Positions 4,868 to 53,320 of a DNA stretch of 56,529 nt are shown in pieces. Position 1 is the stretch's first letter; every line of letters starts with the position of its first letter. Where the stretch lies: positions 1-56,529 of the forward strand of contig MQRK01201683.1 in assembly GCA_001938485.1 (NCBI GenBank), read 5' to 3'. Below the pieces are notes generated by a model. That model saw only the letters and a list, made by a program, of their open reading frames with translations. It was not told where the DNA came from and did not search any database. Source of the stretch: Girardia tigrina (taxonomy: Eukaryota). A program made the translations under genes and the position numbers.

Positions 4868-5768
4868 TATATTTTTTTACTTCTAGTTATTATAATAGAA
4901 ACAAAGTTATGATTAACATAATTTGCAATATATAAAAACTAAAAGTATAAATTATATAATTCGTAATTGAAACAAAAGATTAGATCTAAAAAATTTATAG
5001 TATAAAAATTAATTGAAGATAATGTATTTTTATTTTATAAATTAAAATTAATTATAAATTATTTCAATACTAAATAATAACTTATTCCTTATATTCTGAA
5101 AAAGTAAAATATTATTAATGTAATAATTTTAAAATAAACCCAAATTAAAATTAATAATATACAAAACAGTATTTTTAAAAGTAATTTTTATGTCTTTAAA
5201 ATATGTAATCTATTTTTAATAAAATAAATTTATATTTTATTTGGTTTATTTTGATTTTTAAAAAAAACTAAAAAAATTAAGAAATATTATAACAATAAAT
5301 TAGAATTAGTTTGAAAAGAAATTTTACATTTTATTTGAGTATGTAAAAGTATTAAAATATTATTAAATCTGTTTAAAAAGCTCCAATGGAAGATCTCTTG
5401 AGAATCATACGATACGTTTCCTTTATTTTCTTGGCAAACCTCTTATTTCTATTAAAGGGTCTCAATTTTGAATGAAGAATTTTTAATTACAATTCATTTT
5501 CTAAAGATTTTATTTATTTAATAGAATATTACTTACATCAGACAATTTGTGCATTATTATATTCTAATAAATTTCCATTTAATGTTAAATAAATTTTTCT
5601 AAATATATTTAATAAATATAATAGATACTAATAAACAAAATACATATATAATAATTAATAACATGAAAAATCATTTGATAGTTTTAACAGTGAACAACAA
5701 AAAAATAATCTGAATAACCATTTATTATTTCACTAAAATTCACCGCGTGTTTCGTTCTATTTCGTTAT

Positions 5769-6169
5769 TATTAAGAACATTAATTGGGTTTTCTTTACAT
5801 TTATTATTATCACAATTTGAATTGCCACTAGAACAATTCTCCGTAAAACTTGCGTAGCTCGTCATCGTTCTTGATTGGTAATCTTTCATAATATTCTTTA
5901 ACGTCTTATTATTCAAACAAATTTAAATTACAATTTAATTATTACAAAAATAATTTATACTTTAAATTTAAAATATTTTCTATTTATTTTAAGAAAATAT
6001 TATTTATGAAATATTAGTTTAATTTGAAAGTGATTATTTAAATTTTAATAATTGATTGAACATCCCGACGTTTTAAAATATTAATCTACCATCTGGGTGG
6101 GAGAAACACAATCCTAAAACAACATACCAACCAACGCACAATAAACACCATTCAAAAATATTCCTTACA
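5769..6169 (-). mobile_element. Solo-LTR-like element, TG...TA family (copy A)
   Basis: Perfect 5-bp TSD GTTAT (5764-5768 / 6170-6174). Minus strand starts TGTAAGGAA and ends TTAATA. Close relative of 23932-24391. Confidence 0.85.
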
Positions 6170-6399
6170 GTTATAATTTCGTTAAATTTTCAGTTAGTTA
6201 ATACACAATCAACTGTTGAGGTATATATAATTTTCAATGAAGTTGCCTTAAAAAATTTTTGTGAGACTTTATTCAAAATAATTGAAAGAGACCAAATTAA
6301 GAATTCTCAGCCTAGTTAAATAATTAATTTACCTGTAGATAAAAAGTGGAGGATAAAATGTAGTTGTATATTAAGATTAAAAATTCTTTCAAACTTTAT

Positions 6400-6760
6400 T
6401 CTGAAGAATTCAAACATGTAAAGAATTTTATTCTTCAATCAATAAATAATCTTTTAATTTTAAAAATTATGTCTGAGTCATTTAAAGTTGAAAATGTGTT
6501 TAGTAATAAATCACGTACACATTTGAGTTTGTGTTCTAACGTTTTTTATGGGTATACATGTAATGGATACAATGTCACATGTATTGGAGAGACTTCCTGT
6601 TACTCTGAAAATGATTCCAAGAACAAGCTTGTTGAAGGATTAAGAGTTATATTGCTTATCATAGGAAAATTTGTGCATATAAATTGAGTATAAATGATTT
6701 TAAAATACTGGTCAAGCACTTAAAAAATTAGAGGGTGTGCTGTGAAGTTTTTCAAATAAT
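6400..6760 (+). mobile_element. Penelope-like element relic (GIY-YIG region)
   Basis: KVENVFSNKSRTHLSLCSNVFYGYTCNGYNVTCIGETS parallels the better-preserved copy at 12464-12730. Confidence 0.7.
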
Positions 6761-9936: not shown

Positions 9937-10108
9937 TTGGGTTGACCAAAAAGTCATTGCGTTTTTTACTAAAATATTGATTATCAAAAAATGACATGGA
10001 TGCACAAATATTTTTACACGATATACTGTCCATTATTTTCAATCACTTTCTTCCACCTTTCCGTTAGCTTCATTATTCCTGATTCATAGAAACCTTTGCT
10101 TTTTTGAT
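9937..10108 (-). mobile_element. Mariner 3'-end fragment with TIR
   Basis: TA|TTGGGTTGACCAAAAAGTCATTGCG TIR; minus strand KGFYESGIMKLTERWKKVIENNGQYI. Confidence 0.85.
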
Positions 10109-10109
10109 A

Positions 10110-10900
10110 AGCTGAAAGGTAAGATCAAAGAGATTGTACGCAGTTGTGAATTATGCCAAAAATATAAAATATATACGACCAAGACAAAAGAGAACACGAT
10201 AAAATTAAAAGCTGTCGAGGTTTTTAAATGTATTCATGTGGATATTTGTGGACCGTTGAAAGAGACTTCTGGGATAAATAAATATATTCTAGGCATCATT
10301 GATCAGTTCAGTAAATACATTACGTTATTAGCAATATCGAAACAAGATAATAAAAGTAATAATGTGGAATTGGATACTGAAATTTGGTTCTCCCAAGGCG
10401 ATGAATTGCGGTAAGGTTTTTGAATCAAAAATGATGAAAGAGTTCGCAGAGAAACAGTATTTTGAAATTAGATTCTTCAGACCATATCATCATAACACAA
10501 ACGGACAAATTGAACGACAATTCCGTACTGTGAGAGAAATGATAAATGCAACATTGCATGAAAGAAGAAGTTCAGACTTGGCAGAGATTCTACCGGAGAT
10601 CAAGTTCTTATTAATTGCAACTATTGGGATGAGTCCAGCTGAAATCATTTTCGGAAGACGCATTAGCAGGGAGAAATGGGATGGATAAAATAGCAAAACA
10701 TTTCAATATGAGCGGAACCAGGAGCCTATCACGTGAAGACAATTCTTCCCAGGAGATGAGGTTTTGGTAAAAGTAGAATCTAGAACAAAGATATGACGAA
10801 GAAGATACGAGAAGGAGATATGATGGGCCATATAAAGTCATTCGAAAAGTACATGATATAAGATATGTTCTGGAAGATATGTCTTGTAAAACATGTGAAA
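10110..10900 (+). mobile_element. Gypsy/Ty3 LTR retrotransposon integrase relic
   Basis: CELCQK, IHVDICGPL, IIDQFSKY, PYHHNTNGQIERQFRT, SPAEIIFGR and YDGPYKV (GPY/F) across broken frames. Confidence 0.9.
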
Positions 10901-12068: not shown

Positions 12069-12439
12069 AATTGATATGAACTCTTTCACGACTTCCAAAC
12101 GAATATGTTTTTCTACCTTAATCATACAGATATTGTAGGTGTGGTCAAGCTATTCTCCGTATAACGGTAAGGAAGCCGATTAGTCAGTGAATTGATTTAT
12201 GGGATTCCTTAAAATCGTTATATATGTTTGAATAAACAAAATAACTTTCAAATTAGAATAATTATATATAATAAATAACAAACAGAAAAAAGAGTGATGA
12301 AATAGAGTTGAGACAGTTGGAAATAATTAAAAAGGTAAAATATTATTAATTTTTAGTTGTTAAACCAGAATTTTAATTAAAGATCAGAAATGAAAATGAT
12401 GAACATGATGAAAATAATTTATTAAATTTAAAAATTGTA

Positions 12440-12930
12440 TCTAGATCATGTAAGATAGGAAGTTTGTTTAGTAGTAAATCTATCACTCAAACTAGGTTAT
12501 GTTACACTTTAGTTTATCAATATAAATGTAATGGGTGTGACGCCATATACATCGGCGAGACCTGTCGTCATCTCTGTAAACGGATTCAGGAACATAATCG
12601 CAGGGAAAGTGATAACAATATTGCTCAGCATAAGAAGAACTGCTTGAATAGTAAAGTTGATGTAAGTAATTTTGAGATTTTGTGTTCACAATTTGATAAT
12701 TACTGGGAGAGGGTGATGAGGGAAGCATAGTTGAACAAATCTTTTGATCCTAAAATCAATGTCCAAACACCATCCTCTTCAACTTTATTGAACGTATTTT
12801 CATGATTTAAATGACATAATGATTACATAAACATTGCTTTGATATATAAACGCGAGTATATCATTGTTAATTCAGTCTGATGATGACGGTTGATCCGTCG
12901 AAATTATTAACAATACATTTTGACGAAAAT
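12440..12930 (+). mobile_element. 5'-truncated Penelope-like element: GIY-YIG endonuclease C-terminus plus pLTR
   Basis: LVYQYKCNGCDAIYIGETCRHLCKRIQEH...NFEIL...ERVMREA, followed ~150 bp later by a hammerhead motif. Confidence 0.9.
12871..12920 (+). ncRNA. Hammerhead ribozyme of Penelope pLTR (stems I and III imperfect)
   Basis: CTGATGA-T-GACGG-TTGAT-CCGTC-GAAA: intact core and perfect 5-bp stem II. Confidence 0.75.
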
Positions 12931-14419
12931 TTTTTGTTTTTTAAAAATTCCTTGTCGTCATTTTTTAATTATTTATATTAAATTGTTATTTTTTCATATT
13001 AAGTACGAAATTGTTCATATTAAATGCATAATTTTTAATATTAAATACATATTTTTTAATATTAAATACATATTTTTTGATATTAAATATTAACATCAAT
13101 TTGAATTAAACAATTTTTTAAAAAAATTGCCGGGTCCTGAATTTGGTAAAATGAATTATGTAATCAATTCATGTAATTGCTTTGTAATTAAATACTTTTT
13201 AATGAATTGGTTGAGATTGTCGCTTGAAAATTTATTTTAGGATTGTGAATCCTAACTAATAAAGCTTCACACGCAACTCTCTCCCAATAATTTGCAAAAT
13301 TTCAACACAGATTTTAAAATTATTTATCTCAAAACTACCTTTACATTTCTTTCTATGTTCAGCAATTTTAGTATAACCATAAGTTCGACCGTGTTATTGG
13401 ATTCGTTTGCTAAGATGACGAGACGTCTCTCCAATGTATGTGGCATCACACCCATTTCACGAATGGAGTAACAGATTTTTTACTAAACAAACTTTCAACT
13501 TTGTATGTTTGAGAAACAATCCTTAATCCTAGTAAATTATTTGGATAACATCATTTGAAAGAGTTTTTAAATTTCTTAAATTCTTCGGAAATTTTATGGT
13601 CTTATTCATATAAATAGAAAGATGTATAGTGTTTTACAATTTTACTTTAGAGACATCACCAAACATCCCTAAAAAGTTGTCATCCAATGACGACCCTTCC
13701 TGTTTCAACAAGAATCATTTTTAACAAATAAAACCTATATATTAAAATTAAAATTCCTAAAATAATAAACCACAAAAACCTGTCATTGAATATTATAATT
13801 ATTATAATTAAAATGATAATTATATGATAAACAACACTCAATTTTAATATAAACTCGGAAAGAAATATTAATTTTGTGTTATTTTTTATTAATGAAAACA
13901 AATTATATCGTAAATAAATTTATTCATAAATTCGATTTCGTTAATTTTCAGAGAAACCCTAAAAGAAAAATTAAAAGGGAAAATTCTGTTAGAAGTTCTC
14001 TTTGTATCATAATTGGATAATGCCATTTCGTTGAAGAAGAAAGTTCAATTAATAAAAGCATTAAAGTCGCATTAGTTTTATTGAATTGGAAATTTTGCAT
14101 TTTAAATCGATATATAACAGAAATTATTCACAACATTCAAACAAAAAAAGAAATTCCTTTTCCAATTGGATATTATTAATCTTTGATAACCCGTTTCTTT
14201 CCTTTTCACCTTCCTTCAATTACCATTATTCTATTTTACATGGCGAGTTTGATAAGTATCCCACATGACAAAAAAATAATTCCAAAAAGGGTCATTTTTA
14301 TAACGCAACAAGCTATAATGAGTCAGCATGTAGGCATCATTTTTCAACATGATTTCCATTTCGCTCAACACATTTGGGTTAACGAATAATCAACTGAGAA
14401 AACACCCTTTTGAAATATT

Positions 14420-15433: not shown

Positions 15434-16242
15434 AAATTTTTGTAAAAGAAGTCTTCACAACACATTTTTCCAGGAAATAAAATATTTTGTTTTAATTTTT
15501 ACTGATTAATTAAAACAAATCATTCATTATTAACTATTTAATTTAGTTAATTTACAACAATTTATAAATTGACAATTGTTTTACTTAGTCAGTTTTCTTG
15601 AAATAAAATATTATTTAAATTTGTAAATTAAAACAATTTTTTGAAATAAAAAACATTTTACATTACAAATACAAAATATATAGGATTTTTCTTATTTTGT
15701 CTTTTAATTATTTTTTTTTATATTTCTGGCAATCGAATAAGTTCTTTTCGTTTGGCAAAGGTCAAAATTTAGATTCATCATATTTCACTACTGATAAGTT
15801 TCAATGCGGATGAAATTTTTTTAATAACAACAAAATTAATTCATTAAAAATATATATTTATTGACAATAAATTTAGACGGACCAACTGTATTCTTCAGGT
15901 TCTTAATTAATAATTTAATTAACTTTTATATAATTGCAAAAATAATGATTATGTAATCGATTTCATGAAATCACGCTAATCAATAATTGTCAATAAGTTG
16001 GTTGAGACTACCGATTTAAAATGTAACTCTCTCCCAATAACTATCGAAATTTGGAGACAGTGTCGTGTTAAGCATTGTTAATTAGGTCAGGTTGTTCTAA
16101 ATTCAATCTCAGTGCAAAGGTAAGTATTAATAAATCACAAAATATAACAAATATATTTTTAAATAAATTTAATTTCTTTAAATCAAATGGTAATTCAGTA
16201 ATTAAACATAAATAACACCATTTTAATTTTAAATTTTTATTT

Positions 16243-16280
16243 GAAAACATGTTTCGCTACGTTTGTCGCATCTTCAGTTT
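16243..16280 (-). ncRNA. Minimal type I hammerhead ribozyme
   Basis: Minus strand AAA-CTGAAGA-T-GCGAC-AAAC-GTAGC-GAA-ACATGT-T-TTC; palindromic stem III, one stem II mismatch. Confidence 0.8.
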
Positions 16281-16560
16281 TGTATTTAATTAGAAATTTA
16301 TTGTTTATATAGAAAGATGACCATTACATCACAATGTGTTTCGTCAAAATACTCTAATATGATTTGACGAATCACTTTGCACATGTAGACTAGGTTTACA
16401 AAACTTTATCAAGAGCGCTTCAGTAATTGTTATAAAGTTTTGTAATCCTAGTTTAAATGTACACAGTGATTTGTCCAATCATATTAGAGTATTTTGACGT
16501 AACACATTGTGACGTAATGGCCATCTTTCTATATAAACAATAACTTTCTAATTAAATACA

Positions 16561-16598
16561 GAAATGAAGATACCACAAAAGTGACGAAACATGTTTTC
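16561..16598 (+). ncRNA. Mutated minimal hammerhead (mirror copy)
   Basis: GAA-aTGAAGA-T-ACCAC-AAAA-GTGAC-GAA-ACATGT-T-TTC; core C3 is mutated to A. Confidence 0.65.
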
Positions 16599-17816
16599 GA
16601 ATAAAAATTTAAAATTAAAATGGTGTTATTTGTGTTTAAATATATTTTTAATTAATTTTTTTTATTAAAAATTAATTTTAAAATTTATTATAGTTTTGTG
16701 CATATAAATAAAATAAGTTTCATTTTTTTCTTTTACAAGCAAATATTAAATAATAAAAATTTATTATAATTATTAAATTCAATAAAGAAAAATTCATTTA
16801 TGTTTTGAAAGAGTAAAAAAATAACTAATTGAGTCATTTATTTTTGATATTTTAGGATCTAATTTTCAAATCGATTTTTTTGGATCAACATTAATGAATT
16901 TGGGATTGATTATCCAATTTATTTTTCCCCAAACATTTTAAGAAAAAAAATTGAAATAATTTAATAAATGAGAATTTTCTTTTTATGAATTTATTTTAAA
17001 TAAAAAATATTTTCATTTCGATATCCTTCAGATCACTTTTAGACGTTTTAAAATTTTAAAAATATGTTGAAAGAGACGAAAAAAAGAAAAATGTTTCCGC
17101 TTTTTTTAACAAAATAAAAAATTTAGAAAATAATAATTTAATTTAATTAATTTATTTAATTAATTTGATTTAATTAATTTGATTAAATTAAAATTAATTT
17201 ATATTAATTTAAATTAAATTTTACGATTTTATCTAAATAACAAAAATATTTTCATTTTGATATTTTTCAGTTCAATTTTAAACGCTTAAACATCTAAAAA
17301 TATGTTTTAAGAGACAACAAAAGAAAAAAATTCCACTTTTTTTGAAAAAAAAATTTTGAAGAAAAAAAACAATGTTAAAAATAAAACGGTGAAAAAATAT
17401 CGAATTTCAATTAAACTAATATTGAAATATTAATTAGTTAATTATTTTTCCTAAACAAAGAATTTTTATTTTTATAATTGTTACGTTAATTTAAAATAAA
17501 ACATTAGTTAAAAAACTATTTTAAAAATGCAAAGGTTTAAATTTACCATTCGAAAATATTTATAATTTTATTAATAATGTATAAGTTTATTTAATGATAA
17601 TTATTGTTGTTTTAACGGTTTCAATACGACTTTTATTCTTAACCATCAGAAAGTCGAATAGTAAGTTATTGAACGGAGGAACAATCTCTTGATAACATAT
17701 GGGATTAGAGGTACGCAGTGTGACGGTAGCATGATCATCCCGTGACCGAAATAGTAAATGACGGAATCGGCTGAATAAATCTCCTGGTAAACGCATTTGT
17801 AAAGTTCAGTCTTGTC

Positions 17817-19627: not shown

Positions 19628-20987
19628 TGAGGGGTGTCCTAAAAGTTCACGGACTGAGAGAATATGGTGTGGTCATGTATGTACGTGATTGTAACGCGTG
19701 GTATGTGTACGATGACATGACGAGGGAACCAACAAATTGTAATTGAGGTGAACTCTCATTGGCTGCCCGTCGACATGTGTGTGACATACGAATGTATTAA
19801 TTTGTCATTTTTCTCTATTGTAGTTAGTATTGAAGAGGCAGTGAAATCTCAACGAGCAATCATCTATTTCCTCTGGTAGGAAGACATAACCACTGCAGAT
19901 ATTATACACCGTTTACACTGCGTCCTTGGTGATGCCTCTATGGGAAGAACGGCTGTCTTTAAGTGGGTGCAACGATTCCAGTCAGGGCGTCAATCATTGG
20001 AGGATTATGAACGCAGTGGGTGACCAACAACGTCCGGATGTCGAGAAAATGTGAAAGTTATCGAGGAAGTCATTCTTGGTGACAGATTTCTAACTATCCG
20101 TGAGATAGCAGCTATTACTGACGTTTCTAAAAGTCAGGTGCACCGCATCATGTCAGAGGAGCTGCATATGAGGAAACTGACTACCAGGTGTGTGCCGCGC
20201 CTCCTCAACAGCGACCAGAAAGCTAATCAACAGTCTGCTTGTCAAGAACTGCTGCAACTGGTTCATGATCTCGGTGAGGCGTTCTGGTCACGGATTGTGA
20301 CAATGGACAAAACGTGGCTCCCGTTTTATCTTCCTGAAACCCAGGAGCAGTCCCGAAAATGGGGCCGCCCAGGTGACAGACCCCTCTTAAAGGCGAAGAC
20401 CGTCCCTTCAGCCATGAAAGTAATGGTTACAGTCTTTTGAGACTGTAATGGGATAATTCACATTGATTACCTGCCAAAGAGGGTCACCATCAACAGCGCA
20501 TACTACACGAACCTTCTCGACAAAGATCTGCGCAAAGCTCTCGAGAACAAACGGCTGGGAAAGTTGTCATCCATACCATTATTGCAACAGGAAAACGCAC
20601 GTCCCCATACAGCGAAGTTGACTGTCAGTACCGTGCAACGATTGGACTGGACACTTTTTCCTCACCTCCCATATTCACCGGACCTCGCGCCGACTGATTA
20701 TCACCTTTTCTCGGCATTGAAGAAACCACTTCGAGGACATCATTTCGCGAATTTAGATGAAATGAAAACAACAGTCAGTGCGTGGATTGCTGAGACACCG
20801 CGTATTTTCTTCGATAATGGTATTAGGAAGTTGACACAGAGATGGGAAAAGTGTGTGAAACTGAATGGTGATTATATTGAAAAGTTTGATAGTGATTCTG
20901 ATGAGGATTGATCATTTTTGTTAACTGGAATAAACTTTTTTAATTTGTTTTTACTTATCAGTTCGCGAACTTTTGGGACACTCCTCG
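19628..20987 (+). mobile_element. Full-length but inactivated mariner transposon
   Basis: ~30-bp TIRs (TGAGGGGTGTCCTAAAAGTTCACGGACTGA / TCAGTTCGCGAACTTTTGGGACACTCCTCG), 5' TA. Transposase motifs CVPRLL, IVTMDKTW, QENARPH and YSPDLAPTDYHLF are interrupted by stops. Confidence 0.95.
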
Positions 20988-23612: not shown

Positions 23613-23931
23613 AAAATATTCAACAGACTTCCATTAATCCGAACTAATGAATAGTGAGACTTTTCGGAGTATCAAATGTTCGGTTTATCAATATTCGTTG
23701 TTTAGGAAGATAGACGCGAAAATAATGTCTCGAAGTTTACCTGTTTTCATAATTAAGTCTTTCGCGCATTCTGTGTTAATCAATCAACGAGTATTTTTGT
23801 AAAAATAGATATTCCTATTTATTTAACTTGCTTCAATTGCAAAAACTACGCGTAAAATTGTGTCAGAAGAATTACATTTCCATTACCATAAATGTTTTTG
23901 TAAAATTCAAAGCTAAATAAACGTTTATAAT

Positions 23932-24391
23932 TATTAAGAACATTAATTGAGTTTCCATTACATTTATTATTATCACAATTTGAATTGTCACTACAACAAT
24001 TCTCTGTAAAACTTGCGTAGCTCGTCATCGTTCTTGATTGGTAATCTTTATTAATATTCTTTAACGTCTTATTATTCAAACAAATTTAAAATACAATTTA
24101 ATCATTACAAAAATAATTGATACTTTAAATAATAATTTAATTATTACAAAAATTATTTATAATTGAAATTTAAAATAATTTTTATTTATTTTAAGAAATT
24201 ATTATTAAAATATTATTTATGAAATATTAGTTTAATTTGAAAGTGATTATTTAAATTTTAATAATTGATTAAACAACCCGACGTTTTAAAATATTTAAAA
24301 TATCAATCTTCCATCTGGGTGCGAGAAACACAATCCTAAAACAACATACCAAACAACACACAATAAACACCATTCAAAAATATTCCTCACA
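23932..24391 (-). mobile_element. TG...TA family solo LTR (copy D)
   Basis: TSD ATAAT/GTAAT (4 of 5); TGTGAGGAA...TTAATA; near-copy of 5769-6169 with small internal duplications. Confidence 0.85.
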
Positions 24392-25874
24392 GTAATATTA
24401 TTTTATTGTATTAAAAAAATTATCTGATCATTTTCTGATCATAAAGTTATAAATTAATAAAATGACGTATCGAATATTTATTTTTAACGGTGAAACGATT
24501 TCTTAAAACTCTAATACTGGAATAATTGGTACCGATCCACAGAAGTCGTTCCGAAATTTTTTTGCAAAGGTAAAACGATATCTTGACGATTTAATACCGA
24601 AATAATTTGTATCTAGCTCAACAAATCATACTGCATATTTATTACCAACTGTGAAATAATAACTTATTGCTCTAATTCTGAAATATTTGAATTTTGGTGC
24701 AAAATATTAACTGTCCGTTGAGATTTGTCCAACACTACTTTAATTAATTAATCGGTTGAAATATAATTAACAAAATTTTGTATTTGTTCTGACATTTACG
24801 TACAAAGTAACTTATTTATTTTGTTTTCATCTCATAAACAACTTTTTTTATCGTGATCTGTTAACTCTTTACTCTTTATGTTTTGAGTTTGTTATATCTA
24901 ATGTAACGTTACTATATGCTTCTAAACTTTATATTTTTTATTCTTCATTGTTTAGCAAAGGATTTAGACTATAAACTTACTAAATTTAAGTCCTTTTCTA
25001 TGACTATCCGTAATTTAATTGTTAATTTAATTGTCAAAAGTGGGTTTACAGATTTATATAATTCACTCACATTTGTCAATTCACTTTTATAATAATATTT
25101 ATACGTATTTAACAAGACATGAAAAATTACAGGCAAATAATAATTTTGTATTTAATTTTTCATTTATTTTAATTAAAAATGAAAGAAATATTTTAAAATT
25201 GCGTCTTCTAATTTTTAAAAAACAACTGCCATTGTTTTTTTTCAAATTTATCAGTAAATATTTTATAACTTTGAAATTATTTGACAAATAATAAAATCAT
25301 ATTTCTTTAATATTTTTTCAAATTTATTTCAAAATTACATTTTAATTCGTCGTTAAGAAATATATTAAAATAACTATTTTAAGAATAATTTTAAAGAAAG
25401 TTTTGTTATAACATAAACATTTGTGACAAAACACTTATAAACTGAAAACGACAGAGAAAGAGATTGGTATAATCCATTCTCTCGTCACACTCTTACTTGC
25501 TTCAATGAAGCACTTTTAGATCTAAAGTGTTGACATCATGGAATCTCAATTGTAACTATCTCATGTCCCGAAGGGCATCTTCCAGGCGTTTTACAACACT
25601 CGACTAGCTTTCGAAAGACTAAACTGAATCAGCTGAAAATATACTTTCTAGAAAGTTATTTGTTTAGTATGTATAATAATTTCCCTTCGTCTCCGATATA
25701 AAACTTGCTTTACGGAAGAATAATCATTTGAGTTAACTCAATGAATTTCATTGCTTAATTTGTAACTGAAATGTTGCCTTGATCCTTCATTGCTGCTTTT
25801 AAATTTCTGAACCTTTCTGAAGAACCTTTCCGAGTAACAGTGAACACCACATCTAATGTCATTGAAGTGATATT

Positions 25875-27740: not shown

Positions 27741-30011
27741 TATTCTCGTTCATTAGTTTTTCTTTTTTAAGACGCCACTGTTTTGCAGACCCATTCAGTT
27801 GGTTTTTGATTCTTCCTTGATCAGGTCGATTACTTTTTCTATTGTTTTCTGTTTAAATAAAAAATAATTATTGACATTTTTCAATAAGGTGAACCTTTCA
27901 AAAAAGGCTTTGATCATTATGCCTTTCCAAAAACTTTCTATGTAGAAAATTTTTGAGTTTTGCTTACATGTTTTTACGTGCTCTTCAATTGTGGTAGGAC
28001 TTACAAAATGTTTTTAATAAACAAAAATTTTGACTTCCTTCGCAGCGAATAGAAATTTTTCAAAGAAACTACTTTTTCCTGCTCGTGAAATATTGTTATA
28101 GTTTCCGTAATTTAGAAATAAAATTTAATAATCAATATATAAAATTATTTAAAAAAAATATGAATACTTTTATTTTAAATATTTCATTTAATATGCAAGT
28201 AATGACGGCTAGTCAAGTCTAATTCTAATGGGCATCCCAAATGATGTGGAATTGCATCAGCCAAAAAGATCTCTCACAAGGAAGTCAATGTTCTAAATAA
28301 TATTGACATTATTATTGTATTTAGAAATTAATCCCTTGGTAACGAAAATAAGATTAACCCCTAGTATTTGAAAATGTTTTGTCTCCTTGATATCGAATTT
28401 TTATATAACTCGGAGATGAAAATCTACATAAAACAAACGTCCACAAGATTAAAATATTTTTTGTTAGAGATTTGACAGCTATCATAAAATCCAATGAAAT
28501 ATTTGTACTATAATCAGAGGGTTATAATTTAACTTTTATGAATAATTTTTTTTATTCCTTGAAAGAAAGTTCACAAACACAATCGTAAAATTTGTTTCAA
28601 TATTGAATAATTAGTATTTTATTTGGATCACTTTCCTAAATTGTGTTTGAGAAATATTAAAAATTCATACGTTTTTTTATAAATAAAAAAAATAAAACTT
28701 TATATTAATAAAATAATATAATAAATATATACAATTCAAAGGTTAGTAAAACAAGCACAATACAACACCGGGCATAAAAAATATTGGCACAGTGAGGCAT
28801 AGGTTCAAAGTTTTATTGTTTTACGTAGTCTAACTAAAATTTTATTGGGACAGATTTTGAATCCTAAATTTAATTTGATTGTCCTCTGTGCACTCTTACA
28901 TTGACATATTTTCGTTAATTTATGTATGTTTTATCGAATTACTAGTAAAAATACCATAAAGCTGAATCAAATATCTCAAAATTACTAACAAATGGAACAC
29001 AAAGTTAACAGTTAGCATCCTTTATTTCAGTTTACCTATAATCAAAAGATAATTCATCAATCTATCATCTATTATTTCATCAGTAAACATTGATGTTGAA
29101 AGTGTTACAAAGAAGAATCACTGCGAAAGTGGAGCAAGTTCTTAGCGAGATGCAGGCAGGCTTCAGAAGAGACCGCAGCACTACGGAGCAGATAACCAAC
29201 TTAAGACTAATTTGTGAGAAAACAAGAGACCATAAACGAATAATTTGTCATAACTTTATAAATTTCAAAAAAGCTTTTGACAGCGTGTGGCACGAAGCAT
29301 TATGGTACACAATGAATAAATACAACATAGGAAAACATATCATGAATATTATTAAGAGCCTTTACGAAGATGAAAAGACAAAAGTGTTGACAAGTGAGCA
29401 ATTTAGCGACTGGTTTAAATTATCAGTAGGAGTAAGACAACGTTGCATTCTTTCACCAACACTGTTCAACCTTTTTCTTGAGAGAATTGTTATGGAAGCA
29501 ATAGAAGATCTAGACGATGTTGGAATAAGCTGCGGAGGAACAAGAATAACCAACCTATGATTTGCTGATGGCATAGACCTAATCGGCAAAGATGAGGCAG
29601 AGATTCAGGAACTCATGAACAGATTTACACAGTGTCAAAAAATTTCGGAATGGAAATCAATAGACAAAAAAGCAAAGTAATGGTTTCAGGAAATCATAAC
29701 AACGAGATTAAACTGGAGATTTTCATTGAAGAGGAGAAGCTGGAACAAGTAAGGAGTTTCAAATATTTAGGCTCTACTATCACAAAGAATGGGGGAGGCG
29801 AAGAAGAAATCAGAAGCCGGATTGGTATATCAACAAGCGCAATGATTAAGCTTAGCACAGTTTTTAACCTCAAAGAAATCCATCTCAAGAGCAGATTGAA
29901 GATCACTAAGGCTATTGTCTGGGCAACACTCCTCTATGGATGCGAGAGTTGGACAATAAATCAGAAGAGAATGGATAGGCTTAAAGCGTTTGAAATACAG
30001 TGCTACAGGAG

Positions 30012-30432
30012 TATTAACAACATCAATATGAGGTTTACAACATTTATTATTATCACAAGCGCATTCACTATTTGACATCTCTCTTGATCAATTTTTTTCT
30101 GAGTTCAAACTAATTATTTTCAATAAATGAAAATCTGTTAATANNNNNNNNNNNNNNNNNNNNNNNNNNNNNNNNNNNNNNNNNNNNNNNNNNNNNNNNN
30201 NNNNNNNNNNNNNNNNNNNNNNNNNNNNNNNNNNNNNNNNNNNNNNNNNNNNNNNNNNNNNNNNNNNNNNNNNNNNNNNNNNNNNNNNNNNNNNNNNNNN
30301 NNNNNNNNNNNNNNATTTTTAATTAGTAAGAATCAAAGAAAATATCAATCATCCATCTGTGTATGAGAGGCACAATCCGAATCAACATTCTACATGCACA
30401 ATATCAATACACAATTCAAAACATTCCTCACA
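30012..30432 (-). mobile_element. TG...TA family solo LTR (copy F) inserted in the RTE; contains an N gap
   Basis: Perfect TSD AGGAG (30007-30011 / 30433-30437). Removing it restores the RTE reading CYRRMLKITW. Confidence 0.9.
30144..30314. other. Assembly gap (others at 36678-37029 and 48044-48095)
   Basis: N runs. Confidence 1.
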
Positions 30433-31580
30433 AGGAGAATGCTAAAGATCACGTGGAAAGAAAAGAAGACAAATGACTCTGTTTGGAGGAGAGTGACAGA
30501 AGTACTAGGTAAAAGACCGGAATCAATAGAAGAGATCATCAAGAGAAGGAAGCTGAAATTCTACGGTCATCAAATAAGAAAACAAGCACTAGCAAAGGTT
30601 ATGATTGAGGGAAGAGTGGAAGGAGAAAGACGAAGAGGAAGACCAAAGAGGCAATGGATGGACGATTTAAAAGAATGGACTGGACTGAGTATGGAATGTC
30701 AGAGAAAAGAAGCTACAAATAGAAAGATGTGGCGAAGACTTGTTTATAATTTGGTGCACCCACGGCCCAACGGCTAAGGTCAAAAGAAGAAGAAGAAGAA
30801 ACATTGATGAATCACCAACTATACACAGAATAATACATTATGTCAAAGTAAAATAAATGTAATTATAAAACACGGAGCAGTAAGCCTTCAATTTTTTTCT
30901 TGCCAATGATAATCTCAATGGGCTCAGCACAGAGCCAGACTTAGAAAACGACCATTCTACAACGGAAAACACTGGAATATTCTATTGCCAAAAGGGTTTA
31001 GCTTAGAAGTCTATGTCAGTGTATTCAAGAATGACAATGAATCTTCACATACACTCTCTCGGGCAACTACATCAAGATATATTTGTCATTCATCTACCAC
31101 GAATCAGCAATGAATTTTTGAAGTCGCTCATTTCATAAGATAGGAAAAGCAGTTGTTTGTGTTCAAACATTTGAATACTTTGAAAAGGTTTATAGAAAGC
31201 TGTTTACTATCTTAAACATACTTGGACAGCTTTACTGCAGCATTCGTCATCGTGTTTATAGCGTATGGCAAATTATAACTGATTAACTATAGGTAATAAT
31301 TGTACATATAGATGGATTTATTCAGTCATTTGAAACAAATGTTAGGTTTTCCTGGGTTAACATCAAAATCTACGGCCCGCGGAAATCATGTATTTTGATG
31401 CCAAAATAGATTTTGACTAGTCACACTTGTTAATTTAATTATTATTATAAATGTTCTTTATAACGTTGACAAAATATCTTAATTAAATATCTGGGTTAAA
31501 TTTATATTTTTTTCATATTATTAATGTTAGACTTCAGTTATTTAATTATTATTAAAATGATAATTATTATTTTATTTTAG

Positions 31581-33924
31581 TTACCGTTTGGAAAATCACG
31601 ATCAATCTATGTTCACTTTGACTCAAGAATGGTCAGCTCATGATGCCACGGTCAACCATATCTTCGTAAAGCTTCTTCAAAATATCGATAGAGAAAATAC
31701 GTCAAGTTACATTTTCAATTTAATAGCGTCAGATAAAGGAAAGCCATCGCTTTCGGGGAAATTAACAATCGAAATTAAAATTCTTGATGCAAATGATAAT
31801 CCACCGATTTTTGAAAATTCAACATATATGGTCAGTATTAAAGAATCCGAAGTAGTCGGACATTTGTTGCTATTGCTCAAGGCTACAGATAAAGATTTTG
31901 GTGAAAATGGTAACGTTATGTATTATTTTTCGTCGGATGTAAGTCAAGAAATAAGGAAGAAGTTTCAAATTGATCCCGTCACCGGATGGCTGTCGATTTC
32001 TGAGGCTTTAGATTATGAAAAAGTAAAGTTCTACGCTTTCAACGTTTTAGCTCGAGATTCGGGATCTGATTCATTATTTTCAAAAGCACAAGTCAAAATT
32101 TCTATAATAGATTGTAATGACAACCCACCAAAAATATATTTAGAATATCTCACAGAATCAGGAAAGCGAAGTTTAACCGAAGGACCAATTTTATCTACTA
32201 AGGAATATGCAATTGTTCTGGTAAGCGATCCAGACTCAGGTGTTGGGAAACAAGTAAAGTGTGAACTAAAGGGTTCCCAGAAATTTGAGTTAACCCAATC
32301 TAATCTTCGCGAAGGATTAACAATGAAAATAAATTTAATATCACCTTTAGATTTTGAAGAAAAAAATATAGAAAGGTTTACAATAATGTGTCACGATCTT
32401 GGAGATCCTCAATTAACAAGCAGTCATGAAGAGGAAGTCACAGTTAATGATATTAATGATAACGCTCCAGTTTTTGAAAATCATTCCTATCATCACTCGG
32501 TCGACGAAAATAATCAAGCTGGAATGGTAGTATTAAAGGTACAAGCATTGGATAGGGATAGTGGCCTCAACGGCAAAATTGCCTATTCAATAGATCATCA
32601 AAGTACATCCTTCTTCTCAATAGATGTAAGTACTGGAGTTATTAGGTCAAAGATATCATTTGACCGAGAAAAGAGAAAGACGTACCAAATATCTGTTACT
32701 GCCAAAGATTTCGGAGAACCAATGCAATCAGGGTCCACTACGGTGTCAATAACAGTAACAGATTTGAACGATAATGTTCCTTGTTTTCAAGGCCTTAATG
32801 CTGATGGGTCATATATATTTGAAATAAAAGAAAATAAACCAACTCATACAATAATAGGTAAAATCATCGCTGAAGATCCTGACGAAGGTAACAATGGAAT
32901 TGTTTTATATTCCTTTATTTCCCCGTCGGTTTTGTTTTCCATTGATCCGAATCAGGGGATCATAAGAACTAATCAAAAACTCGATCGGGAAGTAATGTCC
33001 ATTCACGAACTGGTAGTGAGAGTAACAGACAAAGGTTCTATAAGACAAGAAAACAGTGTTTCTGTTACTGTCAGTGTCCTAGATGTTAATGATAATGAAC
33101 CAAGGATACTATTTCCCACACAAAAAAATAATTCTATATCAATCTCCTATTTAGATAATGCTGGAGTTTTGTTAGCGAAAATAGAAGCAGATGACAAAGA
33201 TGATGGTTTAAATAGTTTACTAGAGTATCAAATAATATCTGGGAATTCAAGAGATCCGAATCAAGAAAAGATGTTTTACATAGATCAAAAACATGGTGAT
33301 ATAATTCTATCTAGACCTCTTTCAAGACAAGATATGGGAGCATATGTCCTTAAGATAATGGTGTCTGACCAAGGTAATCCACCACTATCATCTTTTGTAA
33401 ACTTTGTCATAAAGGTAGATAATAGTGCTCAGAGACATACACATGTAAATAACCCTAAATACAATCAACAAGCTACATTCTCGGATAGATCAAAAGATGA
33501 TTCTTTTGGAACGACCGTCATACTCATCGTTTTTGTAGCACTCATATGTATCATTGTTCTAGTTTTACTGACATTGGCTGTAATATTTTGCGGAAAACGA
33601 GGACAGGCAGAACTTGGTGAAATACTTTTTAAGAGAACAGATGGTATGGAACATTCAACGAATTCCAGCTTTTGTTTTTGTCTTTCAAGATCTCGTAATA
33701 CAAGGAAATCAAGAATAAACTTTCCTAGGTATTCAGATATGTTGTATAATAACAATACAATTTTTGCAAAAACATATAAATCGTCAAGCGATCTCAATGA
33801 ATCTGGATTTAGGAAAGAAAATAATTTCGCTACCCTCTATAACCGGGACAAAGGGAACTCAGCCGGTTCGTTGATGATGGATAAAAACTCACAACTGAAA
33901 CCAACAGAATGTCAATCTTATCAG
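31581..33924 (+). CDS. Protocadherin, large internal exon (one partial plus five complete cadherin repeats, TM helix, start of cytoplasmic tail)
   Basis: Repeated DxNDNxP, DRE/LDYE and AxDxD motifs; TM TTVILIVFVALICIIVLVLLTLAVIF; acceptor ttttag at 31580 and likely donor CAG|gttgaa at 33924/33925. Confidence 0.95.
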
Positions 33925-34273
33925 GTTGAATATTTTATTATATATAAAAACTATATAAGTACAATGTTATTCGTACAAAGTAAAATTCGTAAGAAAATAC
34001 GCACCAAGAGAAATTGTATTAGAATATTAAGGACTCTTTTATTAACGTATAAAATGCACGTTTCAACAAAACGATATTTCTACTAATAGTCAATGGTAGT
34101 GGTAAACAGAATATATCATTTCCTAACACCAGTGTTAACTTTATTAGTTTAGACACTGCCTCTGGAATTTTTTAAAACGTACCCTGTGACAAAATTAGTG
34201 ATACAACCTTTTCAACATAAAAGCTTGATGTTGCCCAATAAACTTTGGGAGCACTCTTTTGCGTTCAATTTTC

Positions 34274-43691: not shown

Positions 43692-46261
43692 TAGTGGTTC
43701 CTAACATTTTTATGTTGCTACCCCTGTAACCTGTTAGGAAAACGGATTTTACCCCAACTTAATAAAGCTATAAAAACACACAATGCAAGCGAATTTTAAT
43801 GTTTATTAATTACAAATGGTTATTGCCCAGCAGTTCGTCAGAAAACGGGATACCTTGTGAATAAATAGAAAAACACAAATTGCAAAACAGTATTACAATA
43901 TTACTTTTTTTTGTATTTTAAATATGAATTAAAAATATTCAGTGTGAAGGTTGGAATTGTTTTGAATTTACAAGTTTTTTATATTAGGTTTAGTGTCACT
44001 TAAAGCGCATCTCTAGTCATGTTCCACATTGAGCTTTGTTTTCAATGAAACTAAAGTTGAAAAACTACTCTCGCATCTATAAGTGGTGGCGAAGGGTATT
44101 AGCATTTTTAAAGCTCTGTTGGCTATAACAGAATATTCGGTACCTGCTTTAATCCAAAATGTGCAGAGATATTAATTTTGAAATTCTACTTTAAAACTAC
44201 TATTCTTGTGGAGTTCAAGAAATTCTACTTTGGCCGTTACATCCTCGTCTTTAAAAATGTCATCAACAGTAGAAAAGGGTCTTAATATCCAAGAATTGGA
44301 CTGACGATTATCCAAATCCGGAAAATATTGCTTCAGTGACTCTATTACTGTAGATAAATGTTGGGTCACGGCATTTCTAAATGTGATTTTGCTGACTTCG
44401 GTATTTGACAATTGCTCACAGAGTTGTGTAAACATCGACACATCGCCAGTTTGCACTCTGCGTTGGTAAAGTTCTAATTTACGTACAAAACCGGCAACTT
44501 TATCCTGCGCTGTCAAAATATTCGTCATATTTTCTTGCAAAGAAATATTAAGATTGTTGATTTCACTGAAAAAATCAGCAAGATACGCTAGTTTTTCAAC
44601 AAATGTTTTGTCTTTCATTTTTGACAGATACTCTTTTTCTTTTTGTGTTTTCTGTTTTTCAAAAAATAATCCTATTTCTTCACGGAGCTCGTAAGCCCTG
44701 TTCAAAACCCTGCCTCGTGATAAGCAACGTACCTCTGTGTGGTACAAAACAGAGTTAAATTTGGCACCAACTTCATCACATAAAACTTTAAATAATCTGG
44801 TGTTTGTTGCATTGCCATGAACATGGTTCAAAATTTTCACTATGTCATTCAACGTGCTTAGTAATTCTGGTGGAAGCGTCTTAACAGCCACAGCGTAGCG
44901 ATGAATGAGACAATGATAGGATAAAACTTGAGGAGCAACTTGTTTCACGAGTGCTTGAAATCCAGAGCCGACTCCCATCATGGAAGGCGCCCCGTCTGTA
45001 CAAATGCCGACCAGCTTTGACCAGTCCAGACCGTTTTCCTCAATAAACTGTTCCAGCGTTTCGAAAATGCCTTCTCCACGTGTAGTGGTGGATAAGTACT
45101 GACAGAACAGGTATTCCTCTTTTACACAGTCATCTTTAATATAACGTGTAAATGTCAGTAGATGTGAACACAAAACTAAATCTGTAGACTCATCTAATTG
45201 CAGTGCAAACATAGAACTTCTTTCATTTCATCAATAATGGTTGCCATAATATCGTCACTCAAGTCTGAAATGCGGCTTTGAACTGTAGTATTTGAAAGTG
45301 ATATTTGTTTGATCTTAGCCACATGTTTCTCGCCAATGAAGAGTGATACTGCATCACGCAAACAAGGTTTGATGAGATCCTCTCCTATAGTGTGCGGTTT
45401 TTTGTTCATAGCAATACGATAAGAAATTTGATATGAAGCTTGAAGATATGATTCATTTGCCTTTTGCATATTTCCTGTTGAATCAAATCGCACAGACTTC
45501 AGAAAACTCTCTTTTCTCTTAAAAAATCTATATCTTTATCTGCAAATTCTTTGTAAACTCTCTCGAAATGTTCTTTTAATTTGCTCGGCTTCATGCCCTC
45601 TGTATTAAGCACTTTATTACATAGAACACACTGAGGCTTTTCCACATTACCATTTAGAATATTCGTGAATCTCCATTGTAAAAATGCTTCTTTATTTGAG
45701 CGCTTTTTTGAGGTATTAGAACTCATGACCCCTATAATATTCGTAAAAAAAGTTATCTAAGGAAAAAATAAAATGTTAACTTTTACTTTTAAGAATATTG
45801 AGAAAAAACTAATTATAATTAATTATCATTGTTTGTTACTACTTACAGTCAAAAAAGTAAATAATATTGTAATTATTTCAAAACTGGTAGTTATACGTAA
45901 TGAGAGACAATTGAACTTGACTTGTTTAAATATGACTTTATATATGACTTTTTTAAATCTCAAACTACCAATACAGCCTGGTAGACTCGGTACTGAGTGA
46001 CGGTACATCGCGTGTGCGCATTGTGGAGCTCTAACGCGATAATGTGTCGGAATACATGCTAAACCACTCTCAGTTCAAACTGGTTTATACACGCAGTTTC
46101 GATAGCAATAGAGTATATGTCACATGAACCAAATGCGTTACTGTACTGTGTTTTTTTATTAAAAAGAAAGCATCACTAAAATTTAGTGGATGCCTTTTTA
46201 CCCCTAAAGAATTGCGTTTTTACACCCCTGGGTGTAATTATCCCAAGGTTAGGAACCTCTG
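43692..46261 (-). mobile_element. hAT Buster/Charlie-type transposon with frameshifted ZBED5/ZBED8/SCAND3-like transposase (~45726-43940)
   Basis: KPQCVLC...[46 protein letters not shown]; TIRs TAGTGGTTCCTAAC / GTTAGGAACCTCTG; both 8-bp flanks have TA at positions 4-5. Confidence 0.93.
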
Positions 46262-46990: not shown

Positions 46991-49051
46991 ACGGATATCA
47001 CCAATTAGTATCACCAACCCGTATAGTATCACGACCCGAATTATATCCCCAATTTACAAAAATTTTAGTGATACTATTTAAATAGTATTTAAGTTTTTAA
47101 AAATTATTTGAAAAAAAATCATTAATTTTTAAAATCATTTAATTAAATTGTTTTAATATTAATAAATATTCCATTTTAAAAATTCTTATGATCGAACGAT
47201 CGTTTACAATCGCTTTCAAAAAAAGTAATCGAGTTTATGTTGCAAGGCAAAACGTGTTATGCTGCAAAACAGCATTTCGAAGTTAAAAACGGGGAAATAT
47301 ATGACTATTCTATGTTTCAACAGTGGTTTAGAAACAAAGACAAACTTGCTAATCAAAAACCATCTATGAAAAGAGCGTTGGGAGCAGGAAAGAAAACCAG
47401 TTTTGGAACTATAGAACAAATTATTTGCGATGAGATAATAGATCTTAGAATACGAAAAATGAAAGTATATTTCTGATATGACAGTAACATTGAGTGAAGA
47501 GTTTAATATTAAATTAAAAGCTGGAAATTTGATAACAGGGTTTATGAAGAGAAATGGATTTACACTTAGGCGAACTACCAATTTAACAACATTATCAGAC
47601 TCTGACATAATTTTACGTTCTGTTAATTATATGAAATATCTAAAAAATCGTTTCCTTATTTAAATATTAAACAGACTTTAATAATGGATGAAACTGCAGT
47701 ATTTTTCGAGGATGCCAGAACAAATACTGTGAATTTACTCGGAGCACGCAATGTAGTCATGAAATCAACTTGTTTTAACGGATAACATCAAATAGTAGGT
47801 GGACATGAAGTAGTAGGTGTAATGAAGTTTTCAAAAAATTTTCCACCTACTATTAAAATAGTAGGTGGAATCTAATAGTAGGTGTATCGTTTTTGTATAA
47901 TATTTGTAAATATTTTTGTATAAAATTTTTTTATTTGTATAATATTTTTGTAAAGTATTTGTCGGAATCCCAAAAAGAAACTGATCACAGTGATAGTGAA
48001 GAAATATTAACTGATGATGCTTTTATTATCTATGATGAATAAANNNNNNNNNNNNNNNNNNNNNNNNNNNNNNNNNNNNNNNNNNNNNNNNNNNNTCAAA
48101 ACAAAAGCACCAAATAGTAGGTGTAAACCAATATTGGGCGCCTTTTCAATTTTTTTTCCACCTACTATTAAAATAGTAGGTGTCCTACTATTTCATGTTA
48201 TCCGTTAGTTCAATGAGAGTAACATCACTGGTTTCTATTTGGGCAGATGGTAGGAAGATGTCCTTGGTAATCCATAAAGGAAAGGATGGAAGTCCTATTT
48301 GTAAACAAAATCGTATCTTGCATACTACTCAGTCGAAATCTTTGGTTAACCAAAAATTAATTATAATGTGGATCGACCATATGTTTCCTTTGATTGATTT
48401 AAGCAACGGTAAGTGTATTATTTGGGATTCGTGTCGAGTTCATTTAGGCCTACAAGTAAAAGAACATTGTATTAAGAGAAATGTTGAAATGATCGTGACC
48501 CCAGGGGGATTGACACCTTATCTACAAGCAGAAGATATAGGAATTTTTCGTTCCTTGAAATATTTGATGTATTTTCGTATTTATGAATGGAAGAACTCTG
48601 ATTCTGTTGTTTTTACCAAAAATGGTAATCCAAAACAACCATCGAAGGAATTGGTTAATTCATGGGTCGGAGAATCTTTGAAGGAATTGAAAACCGAAAC
48701 CATACAAAACTCAATAATATCATCAGGATTTAGTTCGAACCCTCACGATTGGCATATAGCAAAGCATGATGTGTATGGTAGAAAGTTTTGTGAGGCTTGG
48801 GCTGTTTCAAACCAGATTGAACAATTTCCCTACCAGTCTATTTCCGGGAAAGATGTAGATGATCAGGATGTAGACTGTTTAGATGATAATGATGATGTAG
48901 AATGTTTGGATGTCGTTAATGAATAAAGTATTATTGATATTTGTTTTCTTTTTTATTCATATTTTGATATTTTTGTTAATTGGAATTGAAAGCACCAAAT
49001 AGTATCACCAACTTAAAAAAGATTTTAGTGATACTATTCGGCGATATCCGT
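46991..49051 (+). mobile_element. pogo-like (CENP-B HTH plus DDE_1) transposon, inactivated
   Basis: TA|ACGGATATCACC...GGCGATATCCGT|TA; GFMKRNGFTLRRTT, MDETAV, IIWDSCRVH, PGGLTPYLQAEDIG. Confidence 0.92.
47778..48205. mobile_element. MITE nested in the pogo transposase gene
   Basis: TA|ACGGATAACATCAAATAGTAGG ... CCTACTATTTCATGTTATCCGT|TA; excision restores KSTCFSSMRVT. Confidence 0.88.
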
Positions 49052-52000: not shown

Positions 52001-52416
52001 TCACTACGTTTGTTTACAAATATTTAACTTAACTTTCTTTTCAAAATAATTTTGTTCTGCATAAATTTTACCTGAATTATTGTTTTTTTAAATCAGTTTA
52101 ACTTCCTTATTTCTTATTGCTAAATTTTTAATTAAAAATTGTTATAAATTATTTGGAGAATTGAAAGTTTTAATTAACACTTATAACCAGAAACAAAAAA
52201 TCCAATAAATAATAGTTATTATAAATATATTTTTTTCTTAAAACATCATAAAGACTAAAAATTATTTTCAAAAATATTTTAATTCATTTTAGATACCTTA
52301 TTTATCATTAAATAAATCTTTACGATGTAATACACTATTCAAATATATTTAATCACTTTCAAATAAATTTAAAATATTTTGATTACAATATTATTATAGA
52401 TTTATTAATTTAAATA

Positions 52417-53163: not shown

Positions 53164-53239
53164 TATATTAATTTAATTTTAAAGTTGTCATTTACATTTT
53201 AAAATTTTCCATATAATTTGATAGTTCAAAACATTCAAA

Positions 53240-53320
53240 ATATAAATCTTCCACCTGGGTGGGAGAAAAACAATACCAAACACAACATACAACAAACTTC
53301 ATTCAAAAATATTCCTCACA
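53240..53320 (-). mobile_element. TG...TA family LTR, TG end only (copy H)
   Basis: CCACCTGGGTGGGAGA...CATTCAAAAATATTCCTCACA. Confidence 0.75.

What the first reader, a model, noticed from the sequence alone, without database searches (positions are those of the whole stretch)
16202..16639. 438-bp palindrome built from two back-to-back hammerhead ribozyme units
Seen: ~208-bp inverted arms with a 22-nt spacer and no ORF. Each arm has a minimal hammerhead pointing outward with palindromic stem III (ACATGT). Known: minimal hammerheads with palindromic stem III mark Penelope pLTRs and cleave as dimers, and PLE insertions often carry an inverted pLTR. Inference: a non-autonomous, MITE-looking retroelement. 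A transcript from either strand would carry one ribozyme at its 3' end and fold into a ~200-bp hairpin, a possible dsRNA/siRNA source or self-priming template. If it spreads as a unit, it may be an undescribed class of ribozyme-terminated fold-back element.
Basis: partly seen in the sequence, partly recalled or inferred. Interest (0 to 1): 0.72.

Follow-up and report, generated by a model that had tools for sequence, protein, structure and literature searches.

The report
One-off mirror-image Penelope retroelement scar
The palindrome is real but ordinary: it is two stumps of a very common Penelope-type jumping gene joined head to head, with a joint found nowhere else in the genome and both ribozyme copies mutated, so it is likely a dead, one-off insertion rather than a new mobile element.

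Summary
The palindrome is real: 211-nt arms, 90% complementary, 22 nt apart. It is not a unit of its own. Each arm is the 3' end of an abundant Penelope/Poseidon-type retroelement: last 21-28 codons of the GIY-YIG endonuclease, 3' UTR, minimal hammerhead. The intact 32-nt hammerhead occurs 1,111 times in the genome; this joint occurs once. The insertion spans 16163-16638, has a 13-bp target duplication and a ~40-nt tail on one arm only. The 'spacer' is just the longer arm's overhang. Across sister copies, 44 independent head-to-head joints all differ, and 25 of 25 two-ended insertions carry exactly one tail. The right hammerhead has lost core C3; the left has stem I and II mismatches; both would be buried in a 200-bp duplex. 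Inverted truncated copies, one-sided tails and opposite-strand hammerhead pairs are in print (PMC8557442, PMC3846280, PMC4209133). The scan noted this pattern before in at least 21 other genomes. What remains of interest is family-level support for both target ends priming on one RNA.

The parts
16150..16162 (.). Left copy of the 13-bp target-site duplication (AATATATTTTTAA)
   Evidence: Exact match to 16639-16651; longest match when the other 20 insertions' flanks were swapped in was 7 bp. Inner edge is blurred by up to ~7 nt because tail and target are both A/T-rich.
16163..16202 (-). PLE 'tail': 33-40 nt 3' extension present on the left arm only; it is the sequence that follows the pLTR at the start of the next unit's ORF
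   Evidence: Shared with many sister copies; the full-length unit L091 begins inside this sequence and reads on in the same frame.
16203..16430 (-). Left arm: 228-nt 5'-truncated 3' end of the Penelope-like element (reference L091 positions 2315-2542)
   Evidence: BLAST to L091; 13 of 228 positions differ from the column majority of 77 arms.
16344..16430 (-). Last 28 codons and stop of the GIY-YIG endonuclease frame in the left arm
   Evidence: tblastn with the 400-aa RT+EN frame of L040: 92.9% identity, E 2.7e-11; sister frames match Pfam RVT_1 and GIY-YIG.
16243..16280 (-). [quoted passage not shown]
   Evidence: Alignment of 75 arms; translation.
16431..16431 (.). Head-to-head joint (one extra base between the two truncated 5' ends)
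   Evidence: joint unique in the genome.
16432..16638 (+). Right arm: 207-nt 5'-truncated 3' end of the same element (reference 2336-2542), no tail
   Evidence: 12 of 207 positions differ from the column majority.
16432..16497 (+). Last 21 codons and stop of the endonuclease frame in the right arm
   Evidence: Translation, tblastn E 1.1e-6.
16561..16598 (+). Right minimal hammerhead, decayed: core C3 replaced by A (16564), two mismatches in stem II, start codon lost
   Evidence: C3A seen in 1 of 77 arms; contigs of run X1 read C at 16564 in 380,243 of 382,428 depth units.
16639..16651 (.). Right copy of the 13-bp target-site duplication

Best explanation
The palindrome is the 3' ends of two 5'-truncated copies of a high-copy Penelope/Poseidon-type retroelement, joined head to head between a 13-bp target duplication, and it was likely made in a single insertion event and has likely not moved since. 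Shown: both arms are element 3' ends; one tail; target duplication; unique joint; decayed hammerheads. Inferred mechanism: the element's RT-endonuclease protein made a staggered cut in A/T-rich DNA; both freed 3' ends primed reverse transcription on the element's RNA, one at each of two start sites about 33-40 nt apart (the downstream site gives the tail); both cDNAs stopped early (after about 270 and 207 nt) and were joined in the middle by end-joining repair. The hammerheads are passengers of the pLTR. Since then each arm has decayed about 6%; a read-through transcript would form a long hairpin in which neither ribozyme is predicted to fold.
For: Family: 2,189 first-look candidates, 40 scored; 36 of those 40 contigs match only one arm's length in one piece and run on into GIY-YIG and RT frames (Pfam RVT_1 E 1e-8 to 2e-12, GIY-YIG E 1e-4). 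L091 is a ~2.5-kb full unit with a DKG motif and no Cys motif in the RT-EN linker. Intact 32-nt hammerhead: 1,111 exact matches, control 0. Joint: 1 match at up to 2 mismatches; 3 of 40 scored contigs span the 101-nt joint region, the other two at 86-87% with different joints. Head-to-head joints: 41 in 59 loci (39 independent after merging L002=L005 and L056=L057) plus 5 in 20 further loci; all 44 have different breakpoint pairs, arm lengths about 25 nt to 2 kb. 22 of the 40 contigs show such a joint. One tail: 21 of 21 scorable independent two-ended insertions (L054 dropped because the contig ends 11 nt into its tail) and 4 of 4 more. Target duplications of 10 bp or more: 13 of 21 true pairs against 5 of 420 swapped pairs. 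The tail sits on the shorter arm in 9 of 25 (read), which plain snap-back copying of the first cDNA cannot give. Two arms of one insertion share a rare variant in 11 of 20 pairs against 123 of 2,906 between insertions (Fisher p 1.5e-10), pointing to one source template. Start codon to hammerhead cut is 26 nt, the same as in the anole Poseidon element, whose protein cuts and extends both DNA strands and starts at two RNA sites that bracket the tail (PMC11167929, parts 1-2 of 4 read).
Against: In this very copy the two arms share no rare variant (0 of 17), so 'one template' is shown for the family, not for this insertion. Shared variants could also come from gene conversion between arms. Asymmetric deletion at unstable palindrome centres could shorten a tailed arm after insertion and so mimic the 9 'tail on short arm' cases. 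No empty allele was seen, so the duplication is not confirmed by a pre-insertion site. Four independent fold-backs (window, L002/L005, L003, L032) have both breakpoints within reference 2315-2340; my queries selected for this, and a mild hotspot was not tested. Searches score only 40 candidates each; 122 loci were fetched from a family of over a thousand, and the samples favour long or similar arms. Arkhipova 2013 (passages read) argues for self-priming on an antisense template instead.
Confidence: 0.93

Rival explanations
1. A non-autonomous, MITE-like fold-back retroelement that is transcribed, processed by its terminal hammerhead and re-inserted as a 440-480-bp unit.
For: Compact inverted structure with a target duplication; a second fold-back of nearly the same size exists with the tail on the same arm (L002, breakpoints 2317/2340 against 2315/2336). 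PLE proteins can mobilise sequences lying between pLTRs in trans (PMC3846280, passage).
Against: Joint unique; L002's joint has different letters and shares only common or single recurrent variants with the window copy; the only repeated joints (L002=L005, L056=L057) also share flanks, so they are duplicated loci, not new insertions; 44 of 44 independent joints differ; hammerheads decayed and at stem II pairing probability 0.000 in the full transcript.
Confidence: 0.03
2. Same identity (one-off inverted PLE insertion), but the second arm arose by fold-back self-priming of the first cDNA or on an antisense template, not by a second target-primed start.
For: Here the tail is on the longer arm, as snap-back predicts (16 of 25 in the family); arms of one insertion share rare variants; proposed in print (PMC3846280, passage).
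Against: 9 of 25 insertions have the tail on the shorter arm; the tailless arm stops at the same base in all of them; the window's joint has no inverted microhomology.
Confidence: 0.25
3. Assembly or library fold-back artefact.
For: Fragmented assembly (255,254 contigs); no listed contig of runs X1 or X2 bridges the joint.
Against: Arms differ at 20 of 207 positions, unique DNA flanks both sides with a 13-bp duplication, only one arm has the tail, and the structure follows the same rules as dozens of sister insertions.
Confidence: 0.01
4. Two independent insertions that happened to land back to back.
For: No rare variant shared between the two arms; the region holds other PLE fragments.
Against: One duplication encloses both arms; the joint is 1 nt; both arms have the same age (5.7% and 5.8% from the majority).
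Confidence: 0.02

Closest known systems
Insertion architecture of endonuclease-bearing Penelope-like elements (Craig et al. 2021, PMC8557442; Arkhipova et al. 2013, PMC3846280; passages read)
   Same: 5'-truncated copy with an inverted 5'-truncated copy adjacent at its 5' end, head to head; 30-40-bp tail at one end only; short target duplication (8-10 bp in the rotifer examples); pLTR and tail overlapping the first ORF codons.
   Different: Here both copies are stumps of nearly equal length, so the insertion looks like a hairpin; duplication is 13 bp.
Poseidon element of Anolis carolinensis (Frangieh et al. 2024, PMC11167929; parts 1-2 of 4 read)
   Same: ORF starts at hammerhead stem II with the cut 26 nt after the start codon; tail lies between two start sites; A/T-rich targets; RT followed by C-terminal GIY-YIG.
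   Different: Ends map at +69 and +102 to +109 from the start codon here (main start 111-118 there). No direct sequence comparison or tree was made. The parts read do not explain inverted arms.
Minimal hammerheads of metazoan PLEs (Cervera and de la Pena 2014, PMC4209133; part 1 of 4 and passages read)
   Same: Short stem I, minimal palindromic stem III; that paper reports pairs 100-700 bp apart on opposite strands and relates them to truncated PLEs; monomers inactive and dimers weak in vitro.
   Different: Stem II here is 5 bp; both copies in this insertion are mutated.
Non-LTR retrozymes (bioRxiv 10.64898/2026.07.22.740005, abstract start and two passages seen) and MITEs (definition recalled)
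   Same: Small, non-coding-looking, hammerhead-bearing PLE derivative; inverted ends resemble a MITE.
   Different: Retrozymes are tandem head-to-tail repeats; MITEs are homogeneous multi-copy units with symmetrical ends. This is single-copy, head to head and asymmetrical.

Membership tests
EN+ Penelope-like element | Single ORF with RT followed by C-terminal GIY-YIG endonuclease | tested here: met
   L040 400-aa frame: RVT_1 E 1e-8 (above cut-off) and GIY-YIG 22.4 bits (cut-off 22.6); L007 GIY-YIG 22.9 bits, above cut-off. The window arms carry its last 21-28 codons.
EN+ Penelope-like element | Minimal hammerhead in the pLTR | tested here: met
   Core intact in 66 of 75 arms, whole motif intact in 49 of 75; decayed in the window's two arms. 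Sequence pattern only; Rfam gave no hit.
EN+ Penelope-like element | 30-40-nt tail at one end of inverted insertions | tested here: met
   25 of 25 scorable two-ended insertions, the window included.
EN+ Penelope-like element | Short target-site duplication | tested here: met
   13 bp exact in the window; median 10 bp against 4 bp in swapped controls.
EN+ Penelope-like element | Partial-tandem pLTR-ORF-pLTR arrangement | tested here: inconclusive
   L091 starts inside the tail sequence at a contig end and finishes with the pLTR, as a tandem would; the upstream pLTR is cut off. No intact ORF was seen.
Penelope/Poseidon clade | DKG motif and no extra zinc-finger-like motif in the RT-EN linker | tested here: met
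   Read by eye from translations of L091 and L040; the criteria are from PMC8557442 passages.
Penelope/Poseidon clade | Placement in an RT phylogeny with named members | not tested
   No reference PLE sequences were on hand; PDB search gave only weak bacterial RT matches.
MITE-like or non-autonomous unit | Many copies with the same internal joint at different sites | tested here: not met
   1 copy of the joint; 44 of 44 independent joints differ.
MITE-like or non-autonomous unit | Symmetrical terminal inverted repeats reaching both ends | tested here: not met
   Left end carries 33-40 extra nt.
Non-LTR retrozyme | Head-to-tail tandem monomers with hammerheads on one strand | tested here: not met
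   Two copies on opposite strands, head to head.
Active hammerhead ribozyme | Self-cleavage | not testable with these tools
   Folding only: isolated stem II -1.8 and -1.7 kcal/mol in the window arms against -8.4 in sister copy L040. C3 changes abolish cleavage in the anole element (C3G); C3A was not tested there.

The most novel reading that the evidence does not exclude
Penelope elements integrate by double target priming on one RNA: a protein dimer uses both cut DNA ends, one at each of the two RNA start sites, so every two-armed insertion gets exactly one tail, on either arm, and both arms carry the same template's variants. This palindrome is a minimal fossil of that reaction. The architecture is in print; I did not find this explicit mechanism in four literature searches, which miss most subscription journals, and other AI notes of this scan have proposed it for other genomes.
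Probability: 0.55. Interest if true: 0.45.

Novelty: new member of a known kind. Interest (0 to 1): 0.17.

Why it matters
As a locus it matters little: a decayed insertion of a known architecture. Practically, such stumps are easily mis-annotated as MITEs or new ribozyme elements. The family is useful as a natural experiment: over a thousand young copies, about half of those sampled two-armed, allow the open question of how Penelope elements build inverted ends and the tail to be tested by counting. The one-tail rule, the tail on either arm and the shared variants between arms favour priming from both target ends on one template.

Tried and rejected
Rfam scan of the window: no family at gathering score. 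Run search: no RNA holder listed; laying contigs of runs X1, X2, X3, X5 at 88% and X1, X2, X7, X12 at 98% gave short unitigs; none listed bridges the joint, no empty allele was listed (23 joints not shown), X7 and X12 laid nothing; none of this bears on expression. PDB sequence search: only weak bacterial RT hits. A gapped pattern in tail-to-tail orientation found 0; I had meant the head-to-head orientation, so it serves only as an orientation control. Lead from earlier scan notes that joints mark the hammerhead cut or the RNA start: among 96 element ends examined, none starts exactly at the cut (reference 2500); three short arms start at 2503-2507 in an A-run with A-rich partners, and breakpoints are spread along the ORF; not supported here. 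A first test on five common polymorphic columns was too weak to compare arms and was replaced by the rare-variant test. Look-up of earlier findings by sequence: nothing. Supplements of the papers were not read; figure S2 of PMC11167929 may bear on the tail and inversion model.

Full report
Observation. The window is A/T-rich animal-type DNA (GC 22-35%; a cadherin-repeat frame at 31564-34086) from a 1.43-Gb assembly. The inverted repeat is real: arms 16199-16409 and 16432-16642, 211 nt, 90% complementary, 22 nt apart, the longest of 635 inverted pairs in the window. Each arm has a hammerhead-like motif pointing outward with stem III ACATGT. Rfam has no hit at gathering score.

What the arms are. 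Searching the genome with the palindrome gave 2,189 first-look candidates, of which 40 were scored; 36 of these contigs match only positions about 1-232 in one piece. In those copies the sequence runs on past the 'spacer' into a GIY-YIG endonuclease frame and then reverse transcriptase, confirmed by Pfam. The window arms hold the last 28 and 21 codons of that frame. L091 is a full unit of about 2.5 kb with stops and frameshifts; it begins inside the sequence found just outside the left arm and ends exactly where both arms end. So each arm is a 5'-truncated 3' end: endonuclease end, 72 nt from the stop to a start codon, hammerhead, and the first 23 codons of the ORF, i.e. a pLTR. The start codon sits at hammerhead stem II, 26 nt before the cut, as reported for the anole Poseidon element. 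The intact 32-nt hammerhead occurs 1,111 times.

Boundaries. The left arm (16203-16430) continues outward into a 33-40-nt tail; the right arm (16432-16638) has none. An exact 13-bp duplication lies at 16150-16162 and 16639-16651. Swapping in the flanks of the other 20 insertions gave at most 7 bp for this locus; over all, 13 of 21 true pairs and 5 of 420 swapped pairs reached 10 bp (the control includes L040 and L079, which sit in the same repeated target). The insertion is therefore 476 bp and the 'spacer' is the longer arm's overhang plus one base.

Does it move as a unit? No. The 26-nt joint has one match with up to two mismatches. With the 101-nt joint region, 3 of 40 scored contigs span both sides, the two others at 86-87%. 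A gapped pattern found three contigs, two independent insertions, with other joints. In 59 loci there were 41 head-to-head joints, 39 independent; 20 further loci added 5. All 44 differ. The only repeated joints come with repeated flanks. Inversion is routine in this family: 22 of the 40 contigs show a joint (eight of the 40 were checked only in the short loci, and several end at contig ends). Four independent fold-backs have both breakpoints in reference 2315-2340, but my queries selected for that.

State of the ribozymes. Among 75 arms the core is intact in 66 and the whole motif in 49. The window's right copy has lost C3 (unique among 77 arms; contigs of public runs read C there) and two stem II pairs; the left has one mismatch each in stems I and II. 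The arms are 5.7% and 5.8% from the column majority against a median of 2.1%, among the four most decayed of 77. A transcript of the whole insertion folds at about -249 kcal/mol with stem II pairing probability 0.000 on both strands. Since the two motifs are on opposite strands, they cannot dimerise in cis. Minimal PLE hammerheads were inactive as monomers and weak as dimers in vitro (PMC4209133, passage), and cleavage was not needed for insertion in vitro.

How it formed. In 21 of 21 scorable independent two-ended insertions (24 loci; L005 and L057 dropped as duplicates, L054 because the contig ends in its tail) and 4 of 4 more, exactly one end has the tail. It is on the longer arm in 16 and the shorter in 9 (read). 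Arms of one insertion share a rare variant in 11 of 20 pairs against 123 of 2,906 between insertions, although the window's own arms share none. The anole protein cuts and extends both strands and starts at two RNA sites that bracket the tail. The simplest reading, which is inference, is that both target ends prime on one template, one at each site, and the two short cDNAs are joined by repair. Snap-back copying fits this copy but not the nine insertions with the tail on the shorter arm, unless later deletions reshaped them; gene conversion could also produce shared variants. I put double priming at about 0.55-0.65, snap-back or antisense self-priming at 0.25.

Comparison with what is known. 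Craig et al. describe the inverted 5'-truncated copy and the tail at one end (passages); Arkhipova et al. describe inverted pLTRs with 8-10-bp duplications, a 31-bp tail on one of them, and propose self-priming (passages); Cervera and de la Pena report minimal hammerhead pairs 100-700 bp apart on opposite strands (part 1 of 4). The 2026 retrozyme preprint was seen only as two passages. Four searches did not show a paper stating double priming for PLEs; the library lacks most subscription journals. After reaching this reading I found 119 earlier AI notes in at least 21 genomes with the same keywords, eight shown, all reading such palindromes as one-off PLE stumps; they are not independent evidence. 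Their lead that joints mark the ribozyme cut or RNA start was not borne out here.

Verdict. A real but ordinary, decayed, single-copy inverted insertion of a new family member of known Penelope-like elements. Interest 0.17.

Noticed in passing
window 12377-12908 (+) and 13150-13542 (-): Two fragments of other, more distant Penelope-like families: a GIY-YIG frame (Pfam E 2.8e-5; 40% to the studied family) followed by its own hammerhead-like motif at 12877-12908, and an opposite-strand fragment facing it tail to tail (72-74% alike).
   Followed up: partly
window 15920-16110: The palindrome's left neighbour is itself a high-copy repeat; its minus strand reads like a decayed endonuclease C-terminus and it matches an inverted pair in L069. 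PLE fragments seem to cluster here; another lies at 6367-6594.
   Followed up: partly
L040:1104-2556, L079:4150-5002, L080:1505: Insertions with different arm lengths sit in near-identical flanks, suggesting repeated insertion at one position of another repeat family.
   Followed up: no
L067:6517-6683, L083:1943-2006, L109:974-1041, L116:695-734, L099:3560-3600: Several joints contain a short filler from the element's 5' region (reference about 350-670); two start at 353 and 358. Possibly template jumps along the RNA.
   Followed up: no
L002/L005, L056/L057, L026/L027/L069, L028/L077/L081, L066/L087: Same insertion and flanks on different contigs: the assembly holds allelic or segmental duplicates; L005 has a further ~725-bp insertion in one arm.
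   Followed up: partly
window 31564-34086 (+): 840-aa single frame with five cadherin repeats and a membrane segment, protocadherin-like; the nearest clear host gene, 15 kb away.
   Followed up: no
window 20024-20911, 44172-45535, 48180-48926, 52407-53173, 29087-30777, 9995-10688: Other transposon remains: mariner-type transposase (Transposase_1), a hAT-like frame (no Pfam hit; label recalled), a DDE_1 frame, 73-nt inverted repeats around a transposase-like fragment, a LINE-type RT (RVT_1 E 1.5e-18) and an integrase-like fragment.
   Followed up: no
window 5767-6180, 23930-24402, 30012-30382, 53234-53331, 56158-56204: A dispersed repeat family with 85-96% alike copies, one next to the LINE-type RT fragment.
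   Followed up: no
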